From NCBI GenBank assembly GCA_029559035.1, contig JAKQCT010000066.1, positions 64,832 to 128,831 on the forward strand: a stretch of DNA of 64,000 nucleotides, read 5' to 3'. The stretch is from Acidobacteriota bacterium. GTDB taxonomy: Bacteria; Acidobacteriota; UBA4820. The notes under the pieces were generated by a model. The model did no database searches, was not told the origin of the DNA, and saw only the letters and a list, made by a program, of their open reading frames with translations. This document shows, in pieces, positions 22,748 to 39,096 of the stretch. Position numbers and translations under genes: made by a program. The number at the start of each line of letters is the position of its first letter. Position 1 is the first letter of the stretch.

Positions 22748-24553
22748 ATGGGCTTATGTTGTAAGTGGGCGAGACATCGCGCTGGAGGGCAAGGGGTGGC
22801 CGAAGATAACGGGGGAAAAGACCTCACGAAAGAACGCATCGGGGAACTCGAGGACGCCTACCGGGTGATCGAGGAATACAACAGGATGAAGGAATCCGCC
22901 CCGCAATCCCCGCCTGCCGAGCCGCCTCCAACCGAACCGGCGACGCCGGAACAACCCGCGCCTGAACTTCCGCCCAGGCAGGAGCCTCCGCTTCCGTCCC
23001 CGCCCGCCGGCCATTCGAAACCCGCCGTCGTTCTCAGGGAGATCATAAAGAGCGTCACCCCGAAACCCTCGCCGCAAAAGATGACCAGGGAAGAGCGTCT
23101 GCAGGACAGGGAGCTTCTCTCGCAGTACAAGGGGCCGCGGCTCTACTGGCGGATAATCACCGTACTGACGATGATAATCCCTCCGATCCTGGCCTTCGTG
23201 GCGACGCTCGACCTTTTCAGGGTCAGGAACCACGAACTGCCCAGCCGTTACAAGTTCGCCCTTCACTACTGCATTCTCCTTCTGCTGACGGGCATCGGCT
23301 TCAATTATTTCTTCTTCCAGGACTCTCTGGGAGCCCTGAGCTCCGTCGAACTATGGCAAAGCGTTCTCAGCCTCTTCGCTCTCTTTTTCCCGCCCCTTCT
23401 CATCTGCATAGTGATCGTGGACATGATAAGAAGGCGCAACATGCGCATGGGGCCCTCCTACCTGCTCCACTACATCCTGCTCATCTCGGGCCTGTCGTGG
23501 CTTTTCATCAAGGTGGTGATCGCCCCCGACCTCGACACGCCGGACATCCTCGATATCGTCAACATCCTCCCCGCCATCTACACGGAGATCTTTCCGCCCG
23601 TCCTCTTTCTAATGATAATCCTCGGGCTGATAGGCATCCGCAACAGGCACCTCGCCAGCAGGTACTCCCATACGATCCACTACTGCAGGCTCCTTATCGT
23701 CGCCGGGACGCTCTGGTGGATCCTGCTCGCGACGGGCGAAGAGTTCAACTTCTGGGAGCCGATCAGATCGCCCGCGTCCCCCTCGAAGCTAACCCTTTTA
23801 CGCCTTGACAATTTCCCGGATACCGCGGCCCGGAAGGAGGAGATGACAGGCAGGGATATCGCGCGCGACTACATGCACCTGGTCGCCAAGATAAGCCAGG
23901 TTTACGAATACCGCTTCGCCCCCGGCCAAGGCGGCAATTCAGGGAGCACCGTCGTAATAATGGCCGACGAGCAGAACCTCTATTTCCTCACCTGCGACCA
24001 TGTCGTTGACATGGACGACAACGGAAGTTCCATAAACAACATCATCGACATAGCGATGGAGAACGGCCAGACCTCCCAGGCGAAGGTCATAGGCGCCCAC
24101 AAGAAATACGACCTCGCGTTCCTGCTGGCGCGAAGGGATTCATCAAAAACAGAAATGCCCGCAAAGGATTTTATCCTGCCGATAAGGTCCTCCGAAACGA
24201 TCGAGACGGGAGAACACATCTTTGCCATCGGCCATCCGCTGGGTCGCAACTTTTCCCTATCCGACGGCCTCGTTTCCCAGAAAATTGACCTTAAAGAAAA
24301 AGAGTATAACGGCCTCATCCAGATATCAGCCCCCGTCAGTCCCGGCAACAGCGGCGGACCCGTTTTCGACAGCAGGGGCAACCTGATCGCCATAGCCGCC
24401 CGAAGCTTCTCGCCCATATTCAGAGCTCAGAACCTGAATTTCGCCGTCCGCGCCGACGCCATTTTCGATATCAAAGATTGGGTACTCACCGAAGAAGGAA
24501 AAAAAGCGCTGGAGAAGATCGCCGAGACGCATGGGAAGGGGAAAGATACTTAG
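22748..24553 (+). CDS. Membrane-anchored trypsin-like (S1/HtrA-type) serine protease with Pro-rich linker
   Basis: Pro-rich region (PPAEPPPTEPATPEQPAPELPP), ~8 TM helices, then protease motifs …TCDHVV…, …GHPLG…, GNSGGPVF. Start uncertain between 22748 and 22886. Confidence 0.7.
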   Translation: MGLCCKWARHRAGGQGVAEDNGGKDLTKERIGELEDAYRVIEEYNRMKESAPQSPPAEPPPTEPATPEQPAPELPPRQEPPLPSPPAGHSKPAVVLREIIKSVTPKPSPQKMTREERLQDRELLSQYKGPRLYWRIITVLTMIIPPILAFVATLDLFRVRNHELPSRYKFALHYCILLLLTGIGFNYFFFQDSLGALSSVELWQSVLSLFALFFPPLLICIVIVDMIRRRNMRMGPSYLLHYILLISGLSWLFIKVVIAPDLDTPDILDIVNILPAIYTEIFPPVLFLMIILGLIGIRNRHLASRYSHTIHYCRLLIVAGTLWWILLATGEEFNFWEPIRSPASPSKLTLLRLDNFPDTAARKEEMTGRDIARDYMHLVAKISQVYEYRFAPGQGGNSGSTVVIMADEQNLYFLTCDHVVDMDDNGSSINNIIDIAMENGQTSQAKVIGAHKKYDLAFLLARRDSSKTEMPAKDFILPIRSSETIETGEHIFAIGHPLGRNFSLSDGLVSQKIDLKEKEYNGLIQISAPVSPGNSGGPVFDSRGNLIAIAARSFSPIFRAQNLNFAVRADAIFDIKDWVLTEEGKKALEKIAETHGKGKDT

Positions 24554-24577: not shown

Positions 24578-24991
24578 ATGCCTTTTTATCATTTTACTGA
24601 CACAAGGAACCTTCCTTCAATAAAACGTCACGGTCTCCTTAGTTGGTACAACTTACGCAATAGGAACATCGATCATTTTCCTGCATCTAATGATCTATCC
24701 CGTAAACTCGACTTAAAAAAAAGCCTTGAGAATTATGTCCGTCTTTGCTTAAAACCAAATCACCCTATGGCAAGTCGAGCATTATCTGAAGGAAGAATCC
24801 AAAGAATAGCATGGTTAGTTATTGATGACGCAGTGTCGCGGTGGCGATCCACCCTCTATAGCAATACAAATGCAACCGCAAACAATGCCGTAATTGATCA
24901 TGATATTAGAACGATTTACAATAGTTTTGATTCTCAGGCTGAAGTTCTTGTCGAAGGAGGTATTTCTCTCAAATGGATTACATTTCCGTAA
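24578..24991 (+). CDS. darT: DarT-like (DUF4433) DNA ADP-ribosyltransferase toxin, compact 137-aa form
   Basis: MPFYHFTDTRNLPSIKRHGLLS (DUF4433 N-motif), …ENYVRLCLKPNHPM…, C-terminal …SQAEVLVEGGISLKWI (catalytic Glu in QAE[VF]LV context). AGGAGG RBS; first gene of the AT-rich island. Confidence 0.6.
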   Translation: MPFYHFTDTRNLPSIKRHGLLSWYNLRNRNIDHFPASNDLSRKLDLKKSLENYVRLCLKPNHPMASRALSEGRIQRIAWLVIDDAVSRWRSTLYSNTNATANNAVIDHDIRTIYNSFDSQAEVLVEGGISLKWITFP

Positions 24992-25024
24992 TTTGATGGT
25001 TTCATTGAAAGAGCGAGGATAGAA

Positions 25025-25720
25025 TTGGCAGAAAGACCTGTTTTTATTCCTAATCACACCGGCAAGCAACTTGTTATTGAGAAAAATATTTCTTTTCATT
25101 GGAATCCAGGAATGAGCATATCTCAGAAAAGAAAGAACATAGTTGCTTTGCACGAAGCCGCCAGCATGATTGGAGTGTCACCGATTCTTGAAGTATCTAC
25201 AAAGTCCGATCAACAGATTGGCAATAGATTAAGTGCCTTCAACCTCAAAGTTAGAAGGAATACTGGGACACATATTTCTCTGGAATCTGCATTCCAAGGC
25301 AGTAAGGTATTTAAATACGGCGGCCCCTATAGTGACTTATATGGAAAAAGTGGCTTTGAGTGCAAAAAGGACGAGCGATTAAAGAACTCCGGTGAACTGG
25401 TTTCTTTCTGTTATGATGGCATTGAATGGGATCTTTCACCCCATACAGCTTTTTATGATTGGCTATATGTGAACGCAGTCCATTCGGGTCCATGTATTGA
25501 TGATGTGCTTCTTAGATACAACGGGTTCAGCGATATTGAATTCAATCCGGCAAAATCAATCAACTGCCAGGCCCGCTCATGCGCTTTATATGTTTCTCTG
25601 AAGAAAAGAAAACTTCTCGAAAATGCCATTAAAGACAAAGATTGTTTTATTGAACTGGTAAAAAACGGATACATTCAAAAGACCGACTTATCCCAAATGC
25701 ATCAAGGGAGCTTATTTTAG
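25025..25720 (+). CDS. Uncharacterised 231-aa protein in the antitoxin position downstream of darT-like; not a macrodomain
   Basis: 34-nt gap, same strand. No macro motifs (no GGG…AI / GIYG). Weak by-eye NADAR-like pattern FKYGGPYSDLYGKSGF…DGIEWDLSPHTAF. Confidence 0.5.
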   Translation: MAERPVFIPNHTGKQLVIEKNISFHWNPGMSISQKRKNIVALHEAASMIGVSPILEVSTKSDQQIGNRLSAFNLKVRRNTGTHISLESAFQGSKVFKYGGPYSDLYGKSGFECKKDERLKNSGELVSFCYDGIEWDLSPHTAFYDWLYVNAVHSGPCIDDVLLRYNGFSDIEFNPAKSINCQARSCALYVSLKKRKLLENAIKDKDCFIELVKNGYIQKTDLSQMHQGSLF

Positions 25721-27163: not shown

Positions 27164-27898
27164 TTACTGTTTTGCTGCTTTCTTCGCCTTTCTCGTCGCT
27201 GCGGCCTTTTCGGGGGCTTTGCGCTGCGCGGCTGTCTTGCCGTTGCGCTTCAATATGCCCAGCTTTTCAAGAAGCTGGGGCTGGTCCCTCAGGGCGACCT
27301 TTGCGACCTTGATGAACGCGCTCATCCAATAGTCGATCGCTTCCATCGCCTTGTTCTGTTCATAGGTGGCCTGCTGGGCGGCTCCCTTCGCCGATTCCTG
27401 CGCCTGGTTCGCGGCCGTCAGCTCGACGATCTTTCCCCTCTCCTTCGAAAGCTTTTCGACAGTATATCCGTAAGACGACAGGATGTCGGTTATCTCCGCC
27501 GTGTGCGAAGCGTTGTCAAAGAGGGCCGTCGCCATCGTGATGAACAGCGGCAGGGCGTTCGGCATCGCGGCGTTCAACCCCAGAACCGCCAGCTTGGCCT
27601 TGTCCCTGACAAAAGCCGCCCTCGCCACCTGGGCGAGGTTCTGATAAGCCTTTTTCGCCTCCTTCTCGGCAGCCGACAACCTTGCCGTCGAATCCTTCTG
27701 GTCCCCGTAAGCGGCGACCTGCTTCTTTACAGCCGCCTCGGCCGCCTCGTACAAGCCCTTGCCCTCGCTGATCTTTGCCGTCTGGTAGCCGTACTCCCCC
27801 AAAAGCTGTCCGATCTGGGGATCCGAAAGAGCATTCGAAATTGCCACGTTCGCGGAAATCAACCTCTCTGACAAAGCGTTCTTCGGTCTGACCATCAT
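27164..27898 (-). CDS. Alpha-helical protein with C-terminal Lys/Ala-rich histone-H1/AlgP-like tail; candidate DNA-binding protein for the adjacent iteron array
   Basis: C-terminus …KTAAQRKAPEKAAATRKAKKAAKQ. The gene start abuts the 21-bp repeat array. Confidence 0.45.
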   Translation of the reverse strand: MMVRPKNALSERLISANVAISNALSDPQIGQLLGEYGYQTAKISEGKGLYEAAEAAVKKQVAAYGDQKDSTARLSAAEKEAKKAYQNLAQVARAAFVRDKAKLAVLGLNAAMPNALPLFITMATALFDNASHTAEITDILSSYGYTVEKLSKERGKIVELTAANQAQESAKGAAQQATYEQNKAMEAIDYWMSAFIKVAKVALRDQPQLLEKLGILKRNGKTAAQRKAPEKAAATRKAKKAAKQ

Positions 27899-28306: not shown

Positions 28307-28482
28307 CTTGTAACAGGCTAACAGGCATAAAGATGTCGTAGAATGGCCACCGAACAAGCAAATATCGGCAAGAATCAATGAACCCCCCACAACCAGTTAA
28401 TAAAATCTATAAATAGTGGTTATCTAAGGGGGAATTATAGAGAGCGCGACGGGAGATGTCAAGAGGGGGGGAGGCCTAAGAT

Positions 28483-29913
28483 TTAGGTTAAGCCCATATC
28501 GTTCTTAATCTCAATAATAACTTCTTCTGTTCTTTCTCTTAACAAAGAATATTTTGACATTTCCTTTGTAGTATCTAGAAAAGATTCGAGTTTTTCCAAA
28601 GCCACAGGTGCGTTGTTTATCTTATAATAATAAAGAAACCCCAGAATAAAAAGAGAAGCATAAAACGTTGGGTTTTGTTGAAAATAGCTCTCGTTAAACC
28701 TGGTGCATCTGTCGATTGCCACAACTTCATTCTTAAAAATGTTGTCCTTTATTCTCGTATAATAGGAATAAGCGGTCTCATAATTCTCTATATACATATT
28801 TAGGAAGGCTTGGTTGTAAAGCCAAGTGCCGTCGCCATCAGAGAGAATTCCCGCCGCTCGACAATAATCCAATGCTTTATAGGCATCTCCATCAATTAGA
28901 AAAGCATAGTAAGCCTTTGATACAACAATAGAGTAATTGTTCTTATCAATTTTCTCAGCTTTAGCAACAAATGCCTTTGCCGATTTAATATCAGCTTTAG
29001 CATAGGCATTAATGGCTTTTTGAATGAGTTCCTCTATCAGCATCGAGCGTGTTCTTTCGTAAATATACACTATATTTGGTGGTTGTGGCTTGAAGTTCGA
29101 TAGATCCGCAAGCAGAGTGTTGTGGATATTATATGCAGTATTTGGATCGCCAGATACTAAGGCTGCCCATCCAATCATATACTGAGATGCCAAAAAGATC
29201 ATTTCCGCAGTGACTTGAAAACCACTAACTTCAAATGCCTCGTCAAACACAACTTCCTTCGGCAAAATTGCGTTGAATTCTTTTGATGCCTCTTTTGTAA
29301 CTGAGAAGTCTTTTGGTACATGTCTCACCATTGCGTTAAAAGTCAAGTAATATTTCTCTTCCCCCTCCTTTCGTTTTATAACGGAACCCCATATATACAA
29401 ATGAAAATGAGTCTTATTAATGAGTTTGCTGTGCATCTTGATTTTCTTGCTTTTTTGAAAGTCTTTTATTCTTTTCGTTTCAAGAAGCTTCTTCATTTCA
29501 TGTTGATATTCCATGAATAATTCATTAGCCATTTGGGCCTTGCACTCTTCAAAACATACTATATTAAGGAGATCGTCCAGTTTTTTCTTTTTACTTACCG
29601 CGTTCATGTTTTTAATAAAATCGTTTTTGATTCTGATTTTTTGATCGTCGTCTTCCGCTGTTATAGAAACGGCAATACCAATTCTATTCTTCAGGTTTTT
29701 AGGGTAGTGTTCTTTCCATAAGTACCAAGTAACAAACCAGCCAAAAAAAAGGATTAGATAAATCACCCATCTCAGCCATACTTCATCCAGAATATCTTTT
29801 AGCAAGCCATCTGTTGGTAATATCACCACCAGATACAACATAATGCAGCCAACGAAAAAGCCAACAGGTTTATTCTTGTATGTGTGGAAATACTCTTTAG
29901 GTAACTCAATCAT
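28483..29913 (-). CDS. Membrane-anchored (2 TM) TPR/Sel1-like helical-repeat protein, last gene of the Type III-like R-M operon
   Basis: N-terminal TM helices (…VGFFVGCIMLYLVVILP…, …WVIYLILFFGWFVTWYLW…); C-terminal TPR-like Ala/Tyr-rich repeats; AT-rich. Confidence 0.55.
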   Translation of the reverse strand: MIELPKEYFHTYKNKPVGFFVGCIMLYLVVILPTDGLLKDILDEVWLRWVIYLILFFGWFVTWYLWKEHYPKNLKNRIGIAVSITAEDDDQKIRIKNDFIKNMNAVSKKKKLDDLLNIVCFEECKAQMANELFMEYQHEMKKLLETKRIKDFQKSKKIKMHSKLINKTHFHLYIWGSVIKRKEGEEKYYLTFNAMVRHVPKDFSVTKEASKEFNAILPKEVVFDEAFEVSGFQVTAEMIFLASQYMIGWAALVSGDPNTAYNIHNTLLADLSNFKPQPPNIVYIYERTRSMLIEELIQKAINAYAKADIKSAKAFVAKAEKIDKNNYSIVVSKAYYAFLIDGDAYKALDYCRAAGILSDGDGTWLYNQAFLNMYIENYETAYSYYTRIKDNIFKNEVVAIDRCTRFNESYFQQNPTFYASLFILGFLYYYKINNAPVALEKLESFLDTTKEMSKYSLLRERTEEVIIEIKNDMGLT

Positions 29914-29958
29914 TCTAGAACCCTTTTAAGATGGATATGATGGACATCAGTACTGCCC

Positions 29959-30309
29959 TCATCCAATCGTCATGATCATGTATTCCATGTTCCTCTGCTT
30001 GCACCATATTTCCGCTGCTTTTCGTTTTCTCTGGACATCGTCGGAATCTATCCGGCTCGGGTCTTTGACTTCAATTATTACTTTCTTCCCATCTTCATAT
30101 TCGACGAAAAAATCCGGCACATACTTTCTTTGATGCTTCTGCCCATCGATCCAGGGAATGGTAATGCCGTGCCTTTTCATCCATTTCTTCACGAAAGGGT
30201 CTTTTTCAAGGCGGTCCATCATTCTTCTCTCAAGATCGCTGTGGTAGTTCTCGAAGTTCCAGGGGCTCTTCTTCGGATTTGCGTATTCACCGCGAATGCT
30301 AATCGCCAT
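29959..30309 (-). CDS. Small PD-(D/E)xK nuclease-fold protein (116 aa), possibly the detached endonuclease module of the upstream Res helicase
   Basis: …YVPDFFVEYEDGKKVIIEVKD… = D…E-V-K core; overlaps the res stop by 11 nt. Confidence 0.5.
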   Translation of the reverse strand: MAISIRGEYANPKKSPWNFENYHSDLERRMMDRLEKDPFVKKWMKRHGITIPWIDGQKHQRKYVPDFFVEYEDGKKVIIEVKDPSRIDSDDVQRKRKAAEIWCKQRNMEYMIMTIG

Positions 30310-32317
30310 ATTCTATTATCCCCCCTATAAGGCCAGGAACCTCTCTCACGTTCCTAAGTACCTGGGTAAGCATTCTCCATGCATAATCAATTTCCTGGCG
30401 ATCTGCAAGCCCGATGGAGTTGCCGTTCATGAATCTTTTCCTGACATGGTGAAGCAGGGCGCTGTAAACCTTGTCTTTTGAAGATGCTGCATACCCTGCC
30501 TCCACAGTCAATGCTTCTGCCATTTCAAGCAACCTTGATTTTAGTGCTTCTCTCACATCATCGTCGCTGATTTCCACTATGGGGATTTGGCCTTCATATT
30601 CCCCGGGAGCGGCATGAACACTTTTCCAGCCTTCCCCACCAAGCTCCTGCCCTGTCACCCCGTTAATCTCAACTTTTGTTATTTCAACAACATTGGGATC
30701 ATACTGGATTGCGTTTAAAGCTTCCTTCCAGTTTTCAAGCGGTTTCGGTGGAGGAGGGACATCCCCGACATCGAATTCGCCCTCATCCTTATAATCAGGG
30801 TCTATCGGAGGAAGATCAATAACGTTGTCAGGTTCGGTCAGTTCCTGTTTCTTTGGCGGCGGCGGCAAATCCTCCGTCTCATCAAAGAGGTCATCGATCT
30901 TGACGCCGACCCTTTTCTTTGCGTTGAAAATATCCCACAGCCATTGATGCTCAAGCTTTGGGTGGTCAACTACCGCGCAAATCTGCGGCTCGGAAGCATC
31001 AACCCCCTTGGCTCGCACCCGTCTAAGACCGCGACCAACAACTTGTTGTCCGTAAACCTTGCTCCCGAATTTTCTAAGAAGCAGTATCACCCCAACCTCA
31101 GGCACGTCCCAACCTTCGCGAAGCATCAGAACACTTACAACCGCGCGATACGGCATTGCGGTCTTCTGCTGTCTTCCAAGCTCTCTTGCCTTCTGCCTGT
31201 CCTCTTCGTCGCTGTCCTCTGTAACCATGAGCGCTTTTACTTTAAAATAGTTATTCAAGGTCTGTGCGGCCTTTTCTGCGTCAGCTTTGCACACCGCCAC
31301 TACAAAAAGAATAGGCTGGTATCGTCCCTTCGCTCGGCCTTCCTGTTCTTCAAGACGCTTTAATGCTATTGCCATCTGTTGGCGCATGGGCTCATCGTCC
31401 GTAACCCACTGTGTCGCGTTCAAGCCCAGCCGGTCTACCTCGTCCCAATCAATTTCCTCAACCTTCCTCTTTTCTCCCGTCTTTGCATCTGTATATGTCA
31501 GCTGAACCGTCTTGATATCAGGCTGATAGACAACCGGTGTCTTGATGATCCCGTCTGACAGCGCGTCTCTTACGCCGTATTCATAGATCATCTCGCTGTC
31601 CGGCACTTTCCCGTCGGCTCTGTCGGGAGTGGCCGTAGTGTCGAGGCGCAGGATGACCTTTTCTCTCATCTTCTTGAGGGTTGCGTCATATTCAGTAGCG
31701 GGCGAGTTGTGGGCTTCATCATTGAATAGGACAAACTCTGGCCCGTTCATGAGCGCAGAAAGGTTACTCTGGCCGCTTTTATTGCTCTGATAGAACTGAT
31801 GAATATTTCCAAGAACAACATCCGCCGAGAAAAGGCTGGCCCATCCCTTCTCCCTGTCAGCCCCAAGAGTAGTAAGAATGAAATCCTTGGATGTGGAATG
31901 CCCCCATTCTGGCAACAGGTCGCGGTCTACGAACACCTTCCCATTCTGAAAATCGTCTTCCAGCCTGTCCCTTACAATGAGATTGGGGCACAGCATGACG
32001 AATTTTCTCGTATCGTAGGCTATCCTTTGCCAGGCAATTACCGCCGCGATAATTGCTGTTTTGCCGCCCCCTGTAACTATGTTCAAAAGAAGGCCGTCAA
32101 GTCCTATCACCGGTTTCTTTAGTATCTCATGCGAATAAATGACTCTGAGAAAAGATTCCCACTGATGAGGCCATAAAGTCCCTTCTCTCGGCAGTTGGTC
32201 GTCATCTTTCGAAGTAAGAAAACCGATATATTTGTACGATTCATCCTTCAGCCCCGGCATCCCGTCACGTCGCCAATCCCTGAAGGCATCCTCATGTCGA
32301 GAGAATTGATTAAACAT
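30299..32317 (-). CDS. res: Type III restriction enzyme Res-like SF2 helicase (DEAH), apparently lacking its own nuclease domain
   Basis: Walker A TGGGKT, motif II FNDEAHNS, helicase C-domain motifs; 672 aa, shorter than typical ~900-1000 aa Res. Confidence 0.8.
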   Translation of the reverse strand: MFNQFSRHEDAFRDWRRDGMPGLKDESYKYIGFLTSKDDDQLPREGTLWPHQWESFLRVIYSHEILKKPVIGLDGLLLNIVTGGGKTAIIAAVIAWQRIAYDTRKFVMLCPNLIVRDRLEDDFQNGKVFVDRDLLPEWGHSTSKDFILTTLGADREKGWASLFSADVVLGNIHQFYQSNKSGQSNLSALMNGPEFVLFNDEAHNSPATEYDATLKKMREKVILRLDTTATPDRADGKVPDSEMIYEYGVRDALSDGIIKTPVVYQPDIKTVQLTYTDAKTGEKRKVEEIDWDEVDRLGLNATQWVTDDEPMRQQMAIALKRLEEQEGRAKGRYQPILFVVAVCKADAEKAAQTLNNYFKVKALMVTEDSDEEDRQKARELGRQQKTAMPYRAVVSVLMLREGWDVPEVGVILLLRKFGSKVYGQQVVGRGLRRVRAKGVDASEPQICAVVDHPKLEHQWLWDIFNAKKRVGVKIDDLFDETEDLPPPPKKQELTEPDNVIDLPPIDPDYKDEGEFDVGDVPPPPKPLENWKEALNAIQYDPNVVEITKVEINGVTGQELGGEGWKSVHAAPGEYEGQIPIVEISDDDVREALKSRLLEMAEALTVEAGYAASSKDKVYSALLHHVRKRFMNGNSIGLADRQEIDYAWRMLTQVLRNVREVPGLIGGIIEYGD

Positions 32318-32318
32318 C

Positions 32319-34334
32319 CTATTTCACCTCAACTTCGCCGGTCCAAATGCCTTCACCGCCCATATCATCCTGGACTTTACAGGCGACCGTAATCTTTCCT
32401 TCTTCGGGGAATTCATACTGAACCGACGACATCGGTTCCTTCTTGTCTGTCTTGGCAAATGCGTAATTGGCAGAGCTAGAAAAGCGATCTTGGTAATCAA
32501 AATCCCACTGAACATTGATTATTTTTGCGCCGGGATTCATAACGATAGTTTCGCTGGCGTCGAATTTATAAACCTTGTGGCTGATTCTCCTCATCCCCAC
32601 TTCTACCTTTGGGGATTGGACGAAGGTAAGGAAATTTTCGTAATCGGCGTGATCGGTGGAGAGCTTGGTGATGTGCTGCCGGAACGGTGGTGAATCAATG
32701 CGCACCATATCGAGCCGGATAAAATTGAGGTCTGTCAACTCCAGTCGTCTTAGCCTCTCAGCAGCTTCAACAGCATCAGGCCTGAACGCCCAGGCAAGCA
32801 TCATTCCGTCCCTTAAGTTGTCCTGCTGATATCTGAGCCCTTTTCTTATAGCATTGGCGAAATCCTGAACATCCTTGGAGGTGACCGCTTTTTTCTGGTC
32901 GGGCGATCCTATCCAGATTGGGATTGCCCCCTTATACCCATGTATCCCTTTTTCATTGCTCTCTATAACAGCGCCGAAAGCTTTTAAAACAAACGCCTGG
33001 AATTCCTTTTCCGGCATCTTCTCCATACGGCGTGCTTCATATACGCCCCAGTGCTCGACAGTGAAGTCGGGAACGGGGAAAAGGTTGCCTATCTTTTCTT
33101 CAACGAGACGCGTCAACCGATCAGCAGTTATTGCCACAGCCACACGGGATTGATCGCAGGCAATCCAGTGACGGCCAAGACGCTGGGCAACTGCGGCTGT
33201 AGTACCGCCACCAGAAAAAACGTCAGCAACTACATCGCCTTCAATTGTGAATGCCTTAATTACCTTTTCAAGCAATTCTTCAGGCTTTTGCGTTGGATAT
33301 CCTATTCTTTCATTTGCTGACTGATTGATAATATCCATTACCCACCAGTCTTTAGGTTTAACACCAACTTTCTCATCAAGATAATCTACTCGACACAGCT
33401 CAGGAGCCTTTGTCAACCATTCAATACCCACATCAGTAGAATTTTGAATTGGGCTCTCTTTAAGATTTCTCCCGTGAAGCCGGAATCTTCTCCCGTCATT
33501 ATCAATATGCTTATATTTTTTAATCGTGACCTCTGAAAAGGTATCGGCTACATTTTTCCAATTGTAACGATAGTGGGGAAAACCACTCTTTGAATACCAT
33601 AATATAGTATCATGTTGTGGGACAAATCGAGAGGTGCTTTGGTAGTAAGTAGTGTTTTTGCACCAAATAATTTCGTTCTTAAACCCAGGTTCTTTGCCAT
33701 CCTTGTCTCCATGACCAAAGATTTTGTCCAACTCCACCTTCACGTAATGGACTGCATGCAAATCAAGATGCACAATAAGCGATCCAGACTTCTTCAACAA
33801 TCTCTTTATTTCATATAGCCTTGCATTAAGCCAGATGAGATATCCTGGCATTCCGCCTTCCCAAATATCCGAGAAGGAGCGCAGTTCATTCTTGTCACCA
33901 AATATCACATTGTAATTCCGCCCAGAGAAGAAAGGCGGGTCAATATAAACTAGGTCAATGCTCTCACTTGGGAGCTGCCTCATCACGTGCAAGTTATCTC
34001 CCCAAAATAGTCTATTGGGTTCGAGATCAGGATGTCCGAATTTGACCCTCTCGACTATCTGGAATGGCAGTGATATTGTCGGAAAGAGCTTCCTGAATCC
34101 TCTCCTTCTATCCCATCCCAGCGGCTCCTTTTCAACCGGAACGCTCCCGAATCTTGTTGGCGGCCGCCAGAAGTCTTCTTGCTCCGGTAACGCTTCAATA
34201 CGCTCTTCTTCCACAGGAACTTCAATCTTTTTGAACTCATCCTCTGAGGTGCCTATCTCGGCAATCAGCGTCTTCTTTCCTTCATCCTTTTTCTTTGTCA
34301 TTATTTTTCCCCATTTGTGCGTAAAGCTGCCCAA
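32319..34334 (-). CDS. mod: Type III-like Mod N6-adenine (or N4-cytosine) DNA methyltransferase
   Basis: Motif IV IDPPF before motif I FSGGGTT (beta-class order); abuts res (1-nt gap). Confidence 0.85.
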   Translation of the reverse strand: MGSFTHKWGKIMTKKKDEGKKTLIAEIGTSEDEFKKIEVPVEEERIEALPEQEDFWRPPTRFGSVPVEKEPLGWDRRRGFRKLFPTISLPFQIVERVKFGHPDLEPNRLFWGDNLHVMRQLPSESIDLVYIDPPFFSGRNYNVIFGDKNELRSFSDIWEGGMPGYLIWLNARLYEIKRLLKKSGSLIVHLDLHAVHYVKVELDKIFGHGDKDGKEPGFKNEIIWCKNTTYYQSTSRFVPQHDTILWYSKSGFPHYRYNWKNVADTFSEVTIKKYKHIDNDGRRFRLHGRNLKESPIQNSTDVGIEWLTKAPELCRVDYLDEKVGVKPKDWWVMDIINQSANERIGYPTQKPEELLEKVIKAFTIEGDVVADVFSGGGTTAAVAQRLGRHWIACDQSRVAVAITADRLTRLVEEKIGNLFPVPDFTVEHWGVYEARRMEKMPEKEFQAFVLKAFGAVIESNEKGIHGYKGAIPIWIGSPDQKKAVTSKDVQDFANAIRKGLRYQQDNLRDGMMLAWAFRPDAVEAAERLRRLELTDLNFIRLDMVRIDSPPFRQHITKLSTDHADYENFLTFVQSPKVEVGMRRISHKVYKFDASETIVMNPGAKIINVQWDFDYQDRFSSSANYAFAKTDKKEPMSSVQYEFPEEGKITVACKVQDDMGGEGIWTGEVEVK

Positions 34335-34341
34335 TAGATCT

Positions 34342-34899
34342 TCAGGTTAGTAATTTAGAGATTTCATCAATTCCCAATTTGAATTCTTTTGCAAGTGCCC
34401 ATATTAATGCTAATAGCTCGGCAACACTTTTTACACTGGAAAGTCCTTTCCTTAATTTTTCCATGAATCCTTTTTGAGGAGTTCCTTCCTTATGAGCATC
34501 TATGTTTTTATCAATGATAGTTCGAATTTCGAGAAGCATTTGTATAGACTGGTTTTGCGACTGGCTTTGAGAAATTACTGTTGACGGACCCCCGCTGAAT
34601 GGCTTTTCTTCGTGGGAAAAATATTTTGCATACAACCTATTAATTAATCCATTAAGTTTCCCTCGGTAATCCGCCAAAGAAATAAACTCAAATCCCCCAG
34701 AGGATGTTGGCACGATCTTAAAACGAGCCATACTATCTCCAGTAAGCTTTTCAAGCTCATCAATAATATGGTTTATATTTTCCCAGCAAGTTTGTGATTG
34801 AGGTGGAAATGAATCTCTTGGATGCACAGGCATGGGGGTCTGGCTAAGATAGCCTTGGAGTTCCTCATATAAAACTTTAATTTCATCTATTTCCGCCAT
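34342..34899 (-). CDS. Hypothetical 185-aa protein, first gene of the R-M operon
   Basis: 8-nt gap to mod; preceded by gggagTATAAT promoter element; no recognisable motifs. Confidence 0.5.
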   Translation of the reverse strand: MAEIDEIKVLYEELQGYLSQTPMPVHPRDSFPPQSQTCWENINHIIDELEKLTGDSMARFKIVPTSSGGFEFISLADYRGKLNGLINRLYAKYFSHEEKPFSGGPSTVISQSQSQNQSIQMLLEIRTIIDKNIDAHKEGTPQKGFMEKLRKGLSSVKSVAELLALIWALAKEFKLGIDEISKLLT

Positions 34900-34976
34900 G
34901 CTTCCCTCCCTTTGCCTCCAAGTCTCTATTATACTCCCCCCCCCGTGTCATTTCGCGCTACAGGTCTTTTCCCCCC

Positions 34977-35282
34977 TCAAAGTACCCTTCCTAGCAGTTC
35001 AACTCTGCTGTCTTCCCACAGGTTCGCGGGGCTTATGAATCCGCGTTTATCGTAGGGGAACTCTATCCCGGCTCTGAGGAAGCATTCATAGACCAGTTCG
35101 GAGCAGATGTATTCGTTGTCCCTTTTCTTTTTCCCCCTGCCTGCTATGATCCTTGCGACGATCAGTTTTAAAATCCTCTTCAAAGGCTCAGTCAATTGTT
35201 TTGTCTTTCTTTCTGCTCCTCGGGACTTTTTTCTCAACCTTTTTCTGAACGTCTTTGATGGCGTCGAGATACGCCTTCTCAA
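34977..35282 (-). pseudogene. Probable C-terminal remnant of a permuted-papain (YiiX/DUF830-like) protein
   Basis: …ICSELVYECFLRAGIEF…RGFISPANLWE… preceded by a Lys/Arg-rich non-homologous N-extension; overlaps the rhuM 3' end. Confidence 0.3.
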
Positions 35283-36231
35283 CCTCGCTTAGATTCTTCG
35301 CTTTGTATTTGCGGAATTCGAGTGCGGCTTTTTCCGCAGCCTTCTCATGGCTTATTGTACCGGCATCGCCTAACAGTTTCCTGCCTGTTGTTCGTAAAAT
35401 ATTGTCCAACTCCCGTATATAATCCGCCATCTTCATCGGTTTATGTTCCATGGCGTTGATCTCAGCCAGGTCAAAATAAGCGGAGACAAGATTGTTAAGG
35501 ACCTTGAGCTCGCTTAATTCCAAAAAGTTCTTGGCGACCATCGCTTCGGCTTGAGTAGGCTGCAAGCCTTTAAAATTTCTCAGCCCAGCAAAGGGCCTGT
35601 CCGAATCCACCCGCAGATAAATCACTTCCGCCGCGGTATGCCCGTGGGCGGCATAATGAAGTTTGTTCTGGACTATTTTAAAGAACTTCAAGGACTCCTC
35701 TGCCCGGGGATCGTAATCAATCGCGGTGGCATAGAGGTCCAGCACCTGGCGATACAGCACTTTTTCACTGCTGCGGATATCCCGGATCTCATCGAGAAGG
35801 TCTTTCCAGTAATTCCCGCCGCCCAATTTCTTCAAACGATCTGAATCGACAGTGAAGCCCTTGACAATATATTCACGTAGGCGGGTCGTCGCCCAGATGC
35901 GGAAACGCGTTGCTACCGAGGATTTTATCCGGTAACCAAGCGAGATAATCATGTCGAGATTGTAATGCTCAACCTCATATGCCTTGCCGTCTGCCGCAGT
36001 TGTTCGGAATTTCCGAACAACTGAATCCCGATCCAGCTCCTTTTCTTCAAAAATATGTTTTATATGTTCACTGACATTTGCTTTGCTTGTCTGAAAAAGG
36101 TCCACAAGCTGGGATTGGGCGAGCCAGGCAGTCTCCCCTTGAAATCTGACATCAACGCTCGTCCTTCCATCGTCGGACTGATATATGACAATTTGGGTGT
36201 CTTGGCTTCCTTCTTTCATGTCATTCTCCAT
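35188..36231 (-). CDS. rhuM: RhuM-family virulence/Fic-DOC-associated protein
   Basis: N-terminus …IVIYQSDDGRTSVDVRFQGETAWLAQSQLVDLFQ… is the canonical RhuM start. The true start may be the second ATG (36219), which has a GGAGA RBS. Confidence 0.75.
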   Translation of the reverse strand: MENDMKEGSQDTQIVIYQSDDGRTSVDVRFQGETAWLAQSQLVDLFQTSKANVSEHIKHIFEEKELDRDSVVRKFRTTAADGKAYEVEHYNLDMIISLGYRIKSSVATRFRIWATTRLREYIVKGFTVDSDRLKKLGGGNYWKDLLDEIRDIRSSEKVLYRQVLDLYATAIDYDPRAEESLKFFKIVQNKLHYAAHGHTAAEVIYLRVDSDRPFAGLRNFKGLQPTQAEAMVAKNFLELSELKVLNNLVSAYFDLAEINAMEHKPMKMADYIRELDNILRTTGRKLLGDAGTISHEKAAEKAALEFRKYKAKNLSEVEKAYLDAIKDVQKKVEKKVPRSRKKDKTID

Positions 36232-37130: not shown

Positions 37131-38189
37131 CTATTCCTTGAACAGGATCGGGGCTGTATCGATTTTCGTTTTTTTTGCCTGCCGGATGATCTTTTTTATA
37201 TCGCTGTTAGTGTTGGCCGGAACAAGCTTCACTTCGGGATGGATAGAAGGATAGACTCGGAATATCTCATCCGCAAAGGCGTTCCCGATGGTGTCCACTC
37301 CGGTGAAATCCAGGACGACCACCTTGAAGCGTTCGAACCGCGCCAGGAGCCTCTTGGCCTGCGACCTGGAGATAAGCTGCTCCATCCCGTGTTTTAGAAG
37401 CCGGACCGCTATTATTGTCTTGTTGAACCCGTAGTCTTCCTTCGATGTCTGGTATTTATTGAAAATCTCTTTGGTAGTCCTCGGGCAGAGGTTCCTGCAG
37501 GACATGTAAACCACTGTTCCGGTTTCACCGATCTGTATGTCCCTGTCCCATATCCAGTCTTCTTCCTGTCCGATGTCGTGGGAAAAAAAGACGCCACCGG
37601 AAAATATCATGAAATGGTCGAACATCCGCGACGTGAAGAATATCCCCTCGCCTGTATGCCTCGATGGATCGGTTGTCAGCTTGCCTTTCGCCAGTTCGAG
37701 GATGGCGTGTCTTTCGTCCTCCAGGTTCAATTCATTCTTGATCTTTTTAAATATGCCGATGCCGTTGTCGGCAATGAACATTTCAACGGTGGCGGCGGTC
37801 TTCCGGATGACCACATTCAGATCTGTCCCCGCCGAGTGATCCACCGCGTTGTTCACAATTTCTGAAAACCCATAATTCCAAATATGAATCATGTTTTCAG
37901 GCAGGTCCTTGAGCGAATCGTCAATCTTTTCCCTCCAAAGCTTGTCCTCCTCAAGGTTTTGAAGACTGACTCGAAAGGATTTTGTCTCAAGCAGTTTAAG
38001 TTTGTAGGTTCTCTGGCGGGTTCTCCCTTCAGCCTCGATCAGCCTGTCTTTCACCAGAGCGTTGATATGGTTGATAATCGCCTGGCGGGTCAGGCCGAAT
38101 TTCTCCATGGCTTTCGCCACGACATCCTTTGGATGCTCGGTTATTTCATTCAAGATGAAGTCTCTGATTTCCTTGGTTCGTCTCGCCAT
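37131..38189 (-). CDS. wHTH - GHKL (histidine-kinase-like) ATPase - STAS-like (DUF4325-type) three-domain protein
   Basis: N-terminal wHTH (…KAMEKFGLTRQAIINHINALVKDRLIE…), N-box/G-box …IVNNAVDHSAG…ADNGIGI…, C-terminal ~100-aa STAS-like module (…FKVVVLDFTGVDTIGNAFADEIF…). Confidence 0.7.
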   Translation of the reverse strand: MARRTKEIRDFILNEITEHPKDVVAKAMEKFGLTRQAIINHINALVKDRLIEAEGRTRQRTYKLKLLETKSFRVSLQNLEEDKLWREKIDDSLKDLPENMIHIWNYGFSEIVNNAVDHSAGTDLNVVIRKTAATVEMFIADNGIGIFKKIKNELNLEDERHAILELAKGKLTTDPSRHTGEGIFFTSRMFDHFMIFSGGVFFSHDIGQEEDWIWDRDIQIGETGTVVYMSCRNLCPRTTKEIFNKYQTSKEDYGFNKTIIAVRLLKHGMEQLISRSQAKRLLARFERFKVVVLDFTGVDTIGNAFADEIFRVYPSIHPEVKLVPANTNSDIKKIIRQAKKTKIDTAPILFKE

Positions 38190-38566: not shown

Positions 38567-38794
38567 TTATTTTAGAAGCTCACAGAAATCATCAACCGAG
38601 AGAAAGGCATCACGGATCAAGGCTCTCAGCAATCCCCTGTCAAGGGTCTTGTGATCCGGGATGCTAAGGGTGGTAATTGTGCCTTCTTTTTTCAAGATCA
38701 TGTGTCGGCTGCTTCCAACTCTAGCGACCACCCATCCGGCTTTTTCGAAAGCGGCGACAGCTTCCCGGCCGGATATTGAAGGAAGTTTCGACAT
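38567..38794 (-). CDS. hicA: HicA-family toxin, copy 3
   Basis: …AFEKAGWVVARVGSSRHMILKKEG…. Confidence 0.8.
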   Translation of the reverse strand: MSKLPSISGREAVAAFEKAGWVVARVGSSRHMILKKEGTITTLSIPDHKTLDRGLLRALIRDAFLSVDDFCELLK

Positions 38795-39004
38795 TTACAC
38801 AGTCACTTCTACAAATGTCACATCCTTTTGAGGAGGAGTCACCAATTCCCGATCAAGCGCGTTGAGACAGCCGCGGATGGCATCCTTGATGTTCTCGAGT
38901 GCTTCCTCCAAAGATTCTCCCTGAGAGTGACATCCGGGGATTGCGGGACAATGCGCGATGTAGCCGAAATCTTCGCCTTTTTCCAGTACGACTCTGTAAA
39001 CCAT
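38795..39004 (-). CDS. hicB: HicB-family antitoxin, copy 3
   Basis: MVYRVVLEKGEDFGYIAHCPAIPGCHSQGESLEEALENIKDAIRGCL…; start placed at the internal Met (the ORF extends to 39070). Confidence 0.7.
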   Translation of the reverse strand: MVYRVVLEKGEDFGYIAHCPAIPGCHSQGESLEEALENIKDAIRGCLNALDRELVTPPQKDVTFVEVTV

Positions 39005-39096
39005 TGATTCCTCCAGCAATATGATATGGTCAATGCTTTCCGAATGCAAGTGCTTTTCCTGAAAGAGCATCCAGAGCGGATGGCTGAAGGATGACG

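What the first reader, a model, noticed from the sequence alone, without database searches (positions are those of the whole stretch)
28483..34899. Type III-like R-M operon with a short Res helicase, a detached PD-(D/E)xK ORF and a TPR membrane protein
The operon is, in order: a 185-aa unknown, Mod (671 aa, DPPF before FSGGG), Res (672 aa, TGGGKT/DEAH), a 116-aa PD-(D/E)xK protein and a 476-aa 2-TM TPR protein. The genes are abutting or overlapping (gaps 8, 1, -11 and 45 nt). Res is about 300 aa shorter than canonical Type III Res, and its C-terminus shows no D…(D/E)xK block. The small ORF that overlaps its stop carries YVPDFFVEYEDGKKVIIEVK. So either the nuclease domain has been split off (a frameshift remnant or a genuinely split Res), or this is an uncharacterised helicase + MTase + mini-nuclease + membrane-effector defence system that resembles Type III only superficially. 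The membrane TPR protein at the operon end is atypical for R-M systems and could be an abortive-infection-style effector.
Basis: partly seen in the sequence, partly recalled or inferred. Interest (0 to 1): 0.6.

Follow-up and report, generated by a model that had tools for sequence, protein, structure and literature searches.

The report
Type III-like restriction system, split nuclease
This is a restriction-modification (anti-phage DNA-cutting) system whose cutting enzyme is naturally divided into a motor protein and a tiny separate nuclease; the division is conserved in about 75 uncultured bacterial species, and the two odd flanking genes are unrelated neighbours.

Summary
Only the middle three form a conserved unit: Mod (32319-34334), a 672-aa helicase-like Res (30299-32317) and a 116-aa PD-(D/E)xK nuclease (29959-30309).

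- **Conservation of the split.** The trio recurs in 76 species-level genomes from about 20 phyla. In all 74 complete junctions the nuclease has its own ATG overlapping the res stop by 11 or 14 nt. It is never fused.
- **Selection.** Synonymous sites are saturated while dN is 0.11-0.29 for both genes. E27, P65-D66, E80-x-K82 and K95 of the nuclease are invariant. The split is therefore genuine, not a frameshift.
- **Origin.** The nearest outgroup Res proteins (825-1156 aa), including a cultured Aminobacter plasmid Mod+Res pair, carry the homologous nuclease fused at the C-terminus. This is a gene fission inside a Type III-like lineage.
- **Specificity.** Mod has a hypervariable target-recognition segment (aa ~205-345) between conserved catalytic blocks, as expected for a working R-M system with diversifying specificity.
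- **Flanking genes.** The 185-aa protein and the 2-TM TPR protein are absent from all related loci and have a lower GC (0.36-0.38 against 0.45-0.50). Their own homologues lie in unrelated contexts.

I found no published description of the split. Verdict: a new variant of a known kind, of moderate interest.

The parts
32319..34334 (-). mod: beta-class amino-methyltransferase (motif IV DPPF at aa 132-135, motif I FSGGG at aa 373-377), with a hypervariable target-recognition segment at aa ~205-345 and a ~260-aa conserved C-terminal extension. The probable true start is the ATG at 34301.
   Evidence: PF01555 E 6.7e-44. PADLOC MTase_II and MTase_III hits. Against 54 homologues, per-block identity is 0.12-0.32 with gaps across aa 226-325 and 0.47-0.49 in the flanking blocks 201-225 and 326-350, against 0.85-0.95 for the catalytic flank (aa 101-175) and 0.86 for aa 376-400. 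Found upstream of res in all related loci where the contig allows.
30299..32317 (-). resH: SF2 helicase-like ATPase subunit (Walker A TGGGKT 82-87, DEAH 200-203, motif VI 424-433), followed by a proline-rich linker (about aa 480-526) and a C-terminal domain (to aa 672). It has no nuclease motif.
   Evidence: PF04851 E 2.2e-14. PADLOC REase_III PDLC03648 E 3.4e-15. NF046055 E 4.5e-23. More than 120 homologues at 77-81 % identity are all 671-673 aa. Full-length representatives down to 35 % identity are 655-714 aa.
30299..30309 (-). 11-nt overlap of the resH stop with the resN ATG (different reading frames), with a G-rich Shine-Dalgarno-like run 10 nt upstream. This is a translational-coupling junction.
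   Evidence: Sequence read. The overlap is 11 nt in 55 related loci and 14 nt in 19, always starts with ATG, and is never fused.
29959..30309 (-). resN: stand-alone 116-aa PD-(D/E)xK nuclease (TnsA-N-like fold family), the detached nuclease domain of Res.
   Evidence: PF08722 E 2.5e-13. It matches the C-terminal nuclease region of fused Res profiles. E27, P65-D66, E80-x-K82 and K95 are invariant in 74 homologues. The profile hits the C-termini of 825-1156-aa outgroup Res proteins and aa 753-853 of an Aminobacter plasmid Res. dN is 0.11-0.27 with dS saturated.
28483..29913 (-). Not part of the conserved system: a 476-aa membrane-anchored protein (2 TM helices, an alpha/beta domain, a C-terminal TPR-like repeat). 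It lies 45 nt downstream of resN and may be co-transcribed here.
   Evidence: No Pfam, PADLOC or NCBIfam hit. Only 7 family members were found in the protein database searched (about 5.8 billion non-redundant sequences). Homologues lie in non-R-M contexts. It is absent from the 76 related loci. GC is 0.358.
34342..34899 (-). Not part of the conserved system: a 185-aa mostly helical protein of unknown function, directly upstream of mod.
   Evidence: No family hit. The family has 38 members of about 185 aa in varied mobile or defence contexts without a fixed partner. It is absent from the 76 related loci. GC is 0.378. The AF2 model has pLDDT 88.6 and no PDB fold match at E <= 0.001.

Best explanation
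The core is a three-gene, Type III-like, ATP-dependent restriction-modification cassette (mod-resH-resN). The ancestral single Res polypeptide has undergone a stable gene fission.

**Shown**
- The three genes are conserved together and in order.
- resN is the homologue of the C-terminal nuclease domain of fused relatives.
- The split junction is conserved.
- Catalytic residues are invariant.
- Both halves are under purifying selection.
- Mod carries a hypervariable recognition segment.

**Inferred mechanism, by analogy with EcoP15I-type enzymes**
1. A Mod dimer reads an asymmetric site through its variable TRD and methylates host DNA. The DPPF motif favours N6-adenine, but N4-cytosine is not excluded.
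2. ResH binds Mod and uses ATP to switch into sliding or translocation along unmodified DNA.
3. ResN is made in step with ResH through the overlapping stop/start. It docks on ResH, most likely on its C-terminal ~150-200-aa domain, which replaces the covalent linker of fused relatives.
4. ResN then cuts the DNA.

**Flanking genes.** The 185-aa gene and the membrane TPR gene are separately acquired neighbours in a low-GC defence island, not subunits of the system.
For: **Gene content and order**
- Mod, Res and the nuclease are present in the same order in 76 distinct genome loci from about 20 phyla.
- The same arrangement appears in metagenome contigs with called genes of 672 and 116 aa.

**The split**
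- 74 of 74 complete junctions keep an ATG-initiated nuclease ORF overlapping res by 11 or 14 nt.
- More than 120 Res homologues at 77-81 % identity are all 671-673 aa.

**Homology to fused enzymes**
- NF046055 and PDLC03648 each match Res and the small ORF in collinear positions.
- 28 outgroup proteins of 825-1156 aa carry the nuclease at the C-terminus. One of them (P0281) is collinear with ResH up to profile position 627.
- The Aminobacter plasmid has Mod of 705 aa plus a fused Res of 895 aa.

**Function retained**
- The nuclease residues E27, PD65-66, ExK80-82 and K95 are invariant.
- Helicase motifs are intact.
- dN is 0.11-0.29 with saturated dS for both genes.
- The TRD region of Mod is hypervariable.

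**Flanking genes are unrelated**
-.
Against: - There are no biochemical or genetic data. Restriction, methylation, the recognition site and a ResH-ResN contact are all inferred.
- Similarity to canonical Type III Res is marginal.
- The nuclease profile finds no solved structure by sequence, so the EcoP15I mechanism may not transfer in detail.
- Co-transcription of the TPR gene (45-nt gap, no terminator found) cannot be excluded.
- All family members found are from metagenome-assembled genomes. No member was found among the 72,556 plasmid records searched.
Confidence: 0.82

Rival explanations
1. The split is an artefact or decay: a sequencing or assembly frameshift, or a recent pseudogenising frameshift in an ordinary fused Res.
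For: The two ORFs overlap by 11 nt in different frames, and a 1-nt deletion within the overlap would join them. A G6 run lies 10 nt upstream of the ATG.
Against: The same two-ORF junction is present in 74 of 74 relatives down to 45 % identity, including CPR bacteria with a different junction sequence. All close homologues are 671-673 aa. Identical proteins occur in several independent assemblies. dS is saturated with low dN in the small ORF, and its catalytic residues are invariant.
Confidence: 0.02
2. All five genes form one new defence system in which the membrane TPR protein is an abortive-infection-type effector and the 185-aa protein is a regulator or sensor.
For: The genes have the same orientation and are tightly spaced (7-40, 1, -11 and 45 nt). 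No terminator-like site lies between resN and the TPR gene. The locus sits in a defence island. Two of six examined 185-aa homologues lie next to R-M or Type IV restriction genes.
Against: None of the 76 related loci has either gene. TPR-family homologues sit beside DUF2188 or unknown genes with no R-M nearby. The 185-aa family has no constant partner. GC is 0.36-0.38 against 0.45-0.50 for the core. Neither protein hits any PADLOC model.
Confidence: 0.07
3. The conserved overlap serves programmed +1 ribosomal frameshifting, so that a fused ResH-ResN polypeptide is the active species, alone or alongside the separate proteins.
For: The overlap is always in the same relative frame, and its length (11 or 14 nt) and sequence are strongly conserved.
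Against: The ATG is invariant, and a G-rich Shine-Dalgarno-like run precedes it at reinitiation distance. No shared slippery codon is present: the codon before the stop is GAT in the 11-nt form, CAG or AAG in most 14-nt forms, and GAG in the CPR form, and none re-pairs in the +1 frame (read). Sequence conservation at the junction is expected from dual coding alone.
Confidence: 0.05
4. The 116-aa nuclease is not the restriction nuclease. It would instead be an accessory repair or mobility nuclease (Vsr-like or TnsA-like), and the helicase-MTase pair would act without cleavage or with another nuclease.
For: The best Pfam hit is the TnsA-like N-terminal endonuclease domain. NCBIfam also lists a TnsA-like subfamily, below its cut-off.
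Against: The protein is homologous and collinear to the C-terminal nuclease of fused Res proteins. No Tn7-type genes are nearby, and the protein lacks the TnsA C-terminal domain. It is strictly coupled to res in every locus.
Confidence: 0.03

Closest known systems
Canonical Type III R-M (EcoP1I / EcoP15I: Mod2Res1)
   Same: The gene order is mod then res. Mod is a beta-class amino-methyltransferase with its own central TRD. Res has an SF2 helicase-like ATPase with DEAH. The nuclease is PD-(D/E)xK and lies C-terminal to the motor in gene order.
   Different: The nuclease is a separate 116-aa polypeptide. ResH is 672 aa against 970 aa. Sequence similarity is limited to the motif VI region (E 0.0035 to 4zcf_C; 28.6 bits against a 564 cut-off for PRK15483). 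Mod matches EcoP15I Mod only at E 1.2e-6.
Fused relatives: NCBIfam NF046055 'BPTD_3080 family restriction endonuclease', PADLOC REase_III PDLC03648, and the Aminobacter sp. plasmid NZ_AP017989.1 Mod (705 aa) + Res (895 aa) pair
   Same: The helicase core and the nuclease domain are homologous and in collinear order. Mod is homologous (E 4.6e-74). The gene order is mod then res.
   Different: In these relatives the nuclease is covalently attached. Scores are far below family cut-offs (81 and 43 bits against 800), so this is a sister clade and not a member. The Aminobacter locus has an extra AAA ATPase gene 5' of mod, as described for some Type III systems in PMC8259958.
CglI / NgoAVII three-gene ATP-dependent R-M (M, R, and the helicase-like N/H protein)
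   Same: This is a characterised precedent for an R-M enzyme whose helicase-like ATPase and nuclease are separate proteins encoded beside a methyltransferase (PMC4267653, PMC5861437).
TnsA N-terminal endonuclease domain (PF08722)
   Same: The 116-aa protein passes the Pfam gathering score (50.8 against 26.5 bits) and has the E...PD...ExK catalytic set.
   Different: It has no TnsA C-terminal domain and no TnsB/C/D genes, and its context is R-M rather than a transposon.

Membership tests
Type III restriction-modification system | The mod gene lies immediately upstream of res in one operon | tested here: met
   There is a 1-nt gap between the mod stop and the res start. The same order holds in all related loci.
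Type III restriction-modification system | Mod is a beta-class amino-MTase (motif IV before motif I) with its own TRD between them | tested here: met
   DPPF at 132-135 and FSGGG at 373-377. PF01555. A hypervariable segment at aa ~205-345.
Type III restriction-modification system | Res contains SF2 helicase-like ATPase motifs | tested here: met
   TGGGKT, DEAH and QxxGRGxR. PF04851 E 2.2e-14.
Type III restriction-modification system | The same Res polypeptide carries the C-terminal PD-(D/E)xK nuclease | tested here: not met
   The nuclease is a separate 116-aa ORF in the window and in 74 of 74 relatives.
Type III restriction-modification system | Sequence membership in the canonical Res family (NCBIfam PRK15483 / EcoP15I Res) | tested here: not met
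   28.6 bits against a cut-off of 564. E 0.0035 to 4zcf_C over about 65 residues.
Type III restriction-modification system | ATP-dependent cleavage needing two inversely oriented unmethylated sites, with hemimethylation of an asymmetric site | not testable with these tools
   This needs a methylome and cleavage assays.
BPTD_3080 family restriction endonuclease (NF046055) | Whole-protein score above the curated cut-off (800 bits) as a single ~970-aa polypeptide | tested here: not met
   Res scores 81.2 bits and the small ORF 42.9 bits. They match collinear parts of the profile (546-619 and 849-943).
PD-(D/E)xK nuclease, TnsA-N-like (PF08722) | Score above the gathering threshold and the catalytic E / D / ExK residues present | tested here: met
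   50.8 against 26.5 bits. E27, D66, E80 and K82 are invariant in 74 homologues.
Tn7-type TnsA transposase subunit | TnsA C-terminal domain and neighbouring tnsB/tnsC genes | tested here: not met
   The protein is only 116 aa. The neighbours are res and unrelated genes. NF033179 scores 42.7 bits against a cut-off of 110.
TPR-repeat protein (the 476-aa neighbour) | Helical-hairpin TPR superhelix | tested here: met
   There is no Pfam TPR hit on the window protein. The AF2 model (pLDDT 87) matches consensus TPR, LapB and OGT TPR domains at Foldseek probability 1.00, E 1e-4 to 1e-3. The distant homologue P0127 carries PF00515/PF07719.

The most novel reading that the evidence does not exclude
In this particular locus the split R-M cassette may have recruited its two flanking genes. 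Under this reading the membrane-anchored TPR protein, co-transcribed 45 nt after resN, acts as a second-line (abortive-infection-like) effector or membrane tether for the restriction complex. The 185-aa protein, whose relatives sometimes sit next to other R-M and Type IV restriction genes, would be a new R-M accessory or regulator. The evidence here shows that neither is an obligate partner, but it does not exclude local co-option.
Probability: 0.07. Interest if true: 0.65.

Novelty: new variant of a known kind. Interest (0 to 1): 0.4.

Why it matters
**What it adds.** Type III enzymes are defined as Mod2Res1 complexes with a single helicase-nuclease subunit. Here a large, strongly conserved clade has the motor and the nuclease as separate proteins joined only by translational coupling. 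It comprises 76 species-level genomes in about 20 phyla and many additional metagenomic sequence clusters, all from uncultured bacteria.

**If it works as proposed, it offers:**
- a natural system for separating ATP-driven DNA communication from cleavage;
- a test of how a nuclease is recruited in trans;
- a reason for annotation pipelines and defence-system finders to recognise a three-gene Type III-like architecture. At present the pieces are named 'DEAD/DEAH box helicase' and 'hypothetical protein'.

**Limits.** It does not open a new category of defence, because fission and fusion of R-M subunits is a familiar theme.

Tried and rejected
1. **Frameshift or pseudogene reading.** Rejected on comparative and selection evidence.
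2. **Solved structures by sequence.**
   - The single 116-aa sequence and a 20-sequence profile gave only chance-level hits, with neither EcoP15I Res nor TnsA among them.
   - Res gave only weak helicase-core hits.
3. **Fold search for the 185-aa protein.** The model has pLDDT 88.6, but no PDB match reached E <= 0.001. Weak MarR-like rows have probability below 0.2 and were not trusted.
5. **Literature.** Nothing was found for 'BPTD_3080'. No description of a split Type III Res turned up in three full-text searches or in PMC8259958, which reports other Type III diversity: m4C methylation and an extra 5' ATPase. REBASE could not be consulted, so prior listing there is not excluded.
6. **Plasmids.** There is no close relative among 72,556 plasmids (best 26 % identity). 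Only 4 IMG/VR contigs carry the Res.
7. **Promoter and terminator scan.** It gave fewer sites than shuffled controls and nothing informative between the genes.
8. **tRNA scan for island borders.** None was found.
Full report
**1. Observation.**
- 185 aa, 34342-34899
- Mod, 671 aa, 32319-34334
- Res, 672 aa, 30299-32317
- 116 aa, 29959-30309
- 476 aa, 28483-29913

The quoted motifs are all in the translations: DPPF before FSGGG in Mod, TGGGKT and DEAH in Res, and YVPDFFVEYEDGKKVIIEVK in the small ORF.

The spacings are 1 nt (mod/res), an 11-nt overlap (res/small ORF) and 45 nt (small ORF/476-aa gene). The first gap is 7 nt with the TTG start. It is probably 40 nt, because an ATG at residue 12 (34301) has a Shine-Dalgarno-like GGGGA upstream, and homologues only align from about residue 10-40.

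Family scans gave:
- Mod: PF01555
- Res: PF04851 (ResIII)
- 116-aa protein: PF08722 (TnsA-like N-terminal endonuclease, a PD-(D/E)xK domain)
- 185-aa and 476-aa proteins: nothing

**2. The small ORF is the detached nuclease domain of Res.**
Two independent profile libraries hold fused Res families that match both window proteins in collinear positions.
- PADLOC REase_III PDLC03648 (871 positions) matches Res at 119-364 and the small ORF at 744-829.
- NCBIfam NF046055, 'BPTD_3080 family restriction endonuclease' (970 positions), matches Res at 546-619 and the small ORF at 849-943.

All scores are far below the family cut-offs, so these are related families, not the same one.

**3. The split is conserved, not a frameshift.**
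- A search of the large protein collection returned more than 120 Res homologues at 77-81 % identity. Every one is 671-673 aa. They are labelled Planctomycetes, Gammaproteobacteria, Chloroflexi and Acidobacteria, among others.
- Called genes on metagenome contigs show Mod, a 672-aa Res and a 116-aa PF08722 protein with the same 11-nt overlap.
- A scan of one genome per GTDB species found 76 distinct loci in about 20 phylum-level groups, all metagenome-assembled, at 45-84 % identity.
- In every one where the contig allows, mod, res and the nuclease gene are present in that order.
- In all 74 complete junctions the nuclease ORF begins with ATG and overlaps the end of res by 11 nt (55 loci) or 14 nt (19 loci). 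A G-rich Shine-Dalgarno-like run lies upstream, and no locus is fused.
- CPR bacteria at 47 % identity have a different junction sequence but the same arrangement.
- Pairwise codon analysis against 12 relatives gives dN of 0.11-0.29 with synonymous sites saturated, for both res and the nuclease gene.
- In the nuclease, E27, P65-D66, E80-x-K82 and K95 are invariant across 74 homologues.

A decaying frameshift remnant would not behave like this.

**4. The ancestral state was fused.**
An exhaustive HMMER search of 1.84 billion representatives shows full-length family members of 655-714 aa down to 35 % identity. Beyond those come proteins of 825-1156 aa that match only the helicase core.

A profile of the 116-aa family hits the C-termini of 28 of those longer proteins. 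One example is P0226, 828 aa, with the helicase at 118-503 and the nuclease at 694-791. In P0281 the ResH profile aligns collinearly up to position 627, just before the nuclease at 685-789.

A fused relative from a named organism sits on Aminobacter sp. SS-2016 plasmid NZ_AP017989.1:
- an AAA ATPase gene;
- a 705-aa methyltransferase homologous to the window Mod (E 4.6e-74);
- an 895-aa 'DEAD/DEAH box helicase family protein' whose residues 753-853 match the nuclease profile (E 4e-13).

An extra ATPase 5' of mod has been described for some Type III systems (PMC8259958). The window family is therefore a fission derivative inside a Type III-like lineage: 672 + 116 = 788 aa, against about 825-895 aa for the closest fused forms.

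**5. It behaves like a working R-M system.**
Across 54 Mod homologues the catalytic and SAM-binding blocks are 85-95 % conserved relative to the window sequence. Residues ~205-345 fall mostly to 12-32 % with many gaps, rising to 47-49 % at the two edges. This is the pattern expected for a target-recognition domain diversifying its specificity. Helicase motifs I, II, III and VI are intact.

By analogy with EcoP15I (established knowledge: Mod2Res1, ATP-triggered sliding, C-terminal PD-(D/E)xK nuclease), I infer the following:
- Mod recognises and methylates the site.
- ResH supplies ATP-dependent DNA communication.
- ResN, translationally coupled to ResH, docks on the ResH C-terminal domain and cleaves.

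These mechanistic steps are inference; none was tested.

**6. Relation to canonical Type III.**
- Similarity to EcoP15I Res is marginal: E 0.0035 over the motif VI region and 28.6 bits against a 564-bit cut-off for PRK15483.
- Mod matches EcoP15I Mod at E 1.2e-6, and CcrM and M.RsrI better.
- The nuclease profile finds no solved structure by sequence.

The system meets the architectural criteria of Type III: mod-res order, a beta-class Mod with its own TRD, and an SF2 Res. It fails the criterion of a single helicase-nuclease polypeptide and fails sequence membership. I therefore file it as Type III-like, not as a member.

**7. The flanking genes are neighbours, not subunits.**

*The 476-aa protein.*
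- Its family has only 7 members in the collection.
- In Bacteroidetes genomes it follows a small DUF2188 gene near ribonucleotide reductase. Elsewhere it precedes an unknown 565-aa gene. There are no R-M genes in either context.
- Its AlphaFold model (pLDDT 87) has two N-terminal membrane helices, an alpha/beta domain and a TPR-like C-terminal half.

*The 185-aa protein.*
- Its family has 38 members, with varied neighbours:
  - GmrSD plus a Type I S gene;
  - an N6_Mtase-Methylase_S fusion;
  - serine recombinases with DUF87 ATPases;
  - HicAB with a caspase-like peptidase;
  - Fic.
- It has no fixed partner.
- Its confident model (pLDDT 88.6) has no PDB fold match.

*Both genes.*
- Neither occurs in any of the 76 related loci.
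- Their GC (0.358 and 0.378) differs from the core (0.45-0.50) and from the host flanks (0.56-0.59).
- Co-transcription of the TPR gene with resN in this locus remains possible, so a locally co-opted role is not excluded, but nothing supports it.

**8. Context.**
The cassette lies in a low-GC island of roughly 15-39.5 kb. The island also carries:
- a DarT-like gene with a DarT1-associated NADAR gene;
- RhuM (PADLOC PDC-S05);
- an HATPase-DUF4325 protein;
- HicAB;
- a trypsin-like protein;
- a 1486-aa ORF without a family.

The 100 % identical database entries are named 'Acidobacteriota bacterium'.

**9. Novelty and score.**
Three full-text searches and a reading of the most relevant Type III diversity paper found no description of a split Res. 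REBASE could not be checked.

This is a new variant of a known kind. It is widespread, strongly conserved and confined so far to uncultured lineages. It would be useful for dissecting Type III-like mechanisms, but it is not a new category of defence. Interest 0.4.

Noticed in passing
Related loci L001, L016, L043, L056, L077, L083, L019, L053, L049, L040 (between mod and res): In about 17 of about 70 related loci the mod-res gap is 340-1890 nt instead of 1-10 nt and holds inserted cassettes. These are MNT/HepT toxin-antitoxin pairs (at least 5 loci), an ImmA/IrrE M78 + DUF4411 pair, a PIN protein, an HD-domain protein and a PDDEXK_3 protein. The mod-res junction looks like an insertion hot spot for TA and defence cargo.
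   Followed up: partly
window 24578-25720 (+): A DarT-like ORF of 137 aa (PF14487, matching only profile positions 1-120 of 201, so possibly truncated) is followed by a DarT1-associated NADAR antitoxin of 231 aa (PF22397, E 4.6e-88). This looks like a DarTG1-type toxin-antitoxin or defence pair.
   Followed up: partly
window ~15000-39500: A low-GC island (0.46 against 0.56-0.59 in the flanks) packed with defence or TA-like genes: RhuM/PDC-S05 (35188-36231), an HATPase + DUF4325 STAS-like protein (37131-38189), HicA/HicB (38567-39070), a trypsin-like 601-aa protein (22748-24553) and a 1486-aa ORF with no family (17964-22424). No tRNA gene was found anywhere in the window; recombinase or integrase genes were not looked for.
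   Followed up: partly
window 28434-28462 (-): A perfect sigma-70 consensus (TTGACA, 17 nt, TATAAT; 12 of 12) lies about 20 nt downstream of the TPR gene stop, pointing towards the 157-aa ORF and the PQLLE-family gene (27164-27898, GC 0.58).
   Followed up: no
window 34936-34944 (-): A G9 homopolymer lies directly next to a TATAAT, 37 nt upstream of the ATG of the 185-aa gene. Homopolymer tracts near R-M operon starts can be phase-variable. This was not examined further.
   Followed up: no
L089 (Aminobacter sp. plasmid NZ_AP017989.1, 33697-44821): A fused relative from a named organism: an AAA ATPase (673 aa), Mod (705 aa) and Res (895 aa, nuclease at aa 753-853). It is annotated only as 'DEAD/DEAH box helicase family protein'. 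The layout resembles the three-component Type III systems with a 5' ATPase reported in PMC8259958.
   Followed up: partly
L093-L096 (IMG/VR contigs): Four contigs classed as viral carry a full-length 672-aa-type Res (65-79 % identity). Whether these are proviruses, phage-borne R-M or misclassified contigs was not checked.
   Followed up: no
L086, L087, L090-L092 and window 34342-34899: The 185-aa protein belongs to a small family (38 clusters, about 180-200 aa, with an invariant Y-x-E-x-x-G-Y-L-S-Q-x-P N-terminal motif). It is found in Bathyarchaeia, CPR bacteria and others, usually in mobile or defence-type neighbourhoods. It has a confident predicted fold with no PDB match.
   Followed up: partly
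window 34977-35282 (-): A 101-aa ORF overlaps the 3' end of the RhuM gene and ends in a sequence (…CSELVYECFLRAGIEFPYDKRGFISPANLWE…) that looks like the C-terminal fragment of a larger protein. It may be a gene remnant and was not analysed.
   Followed up: no
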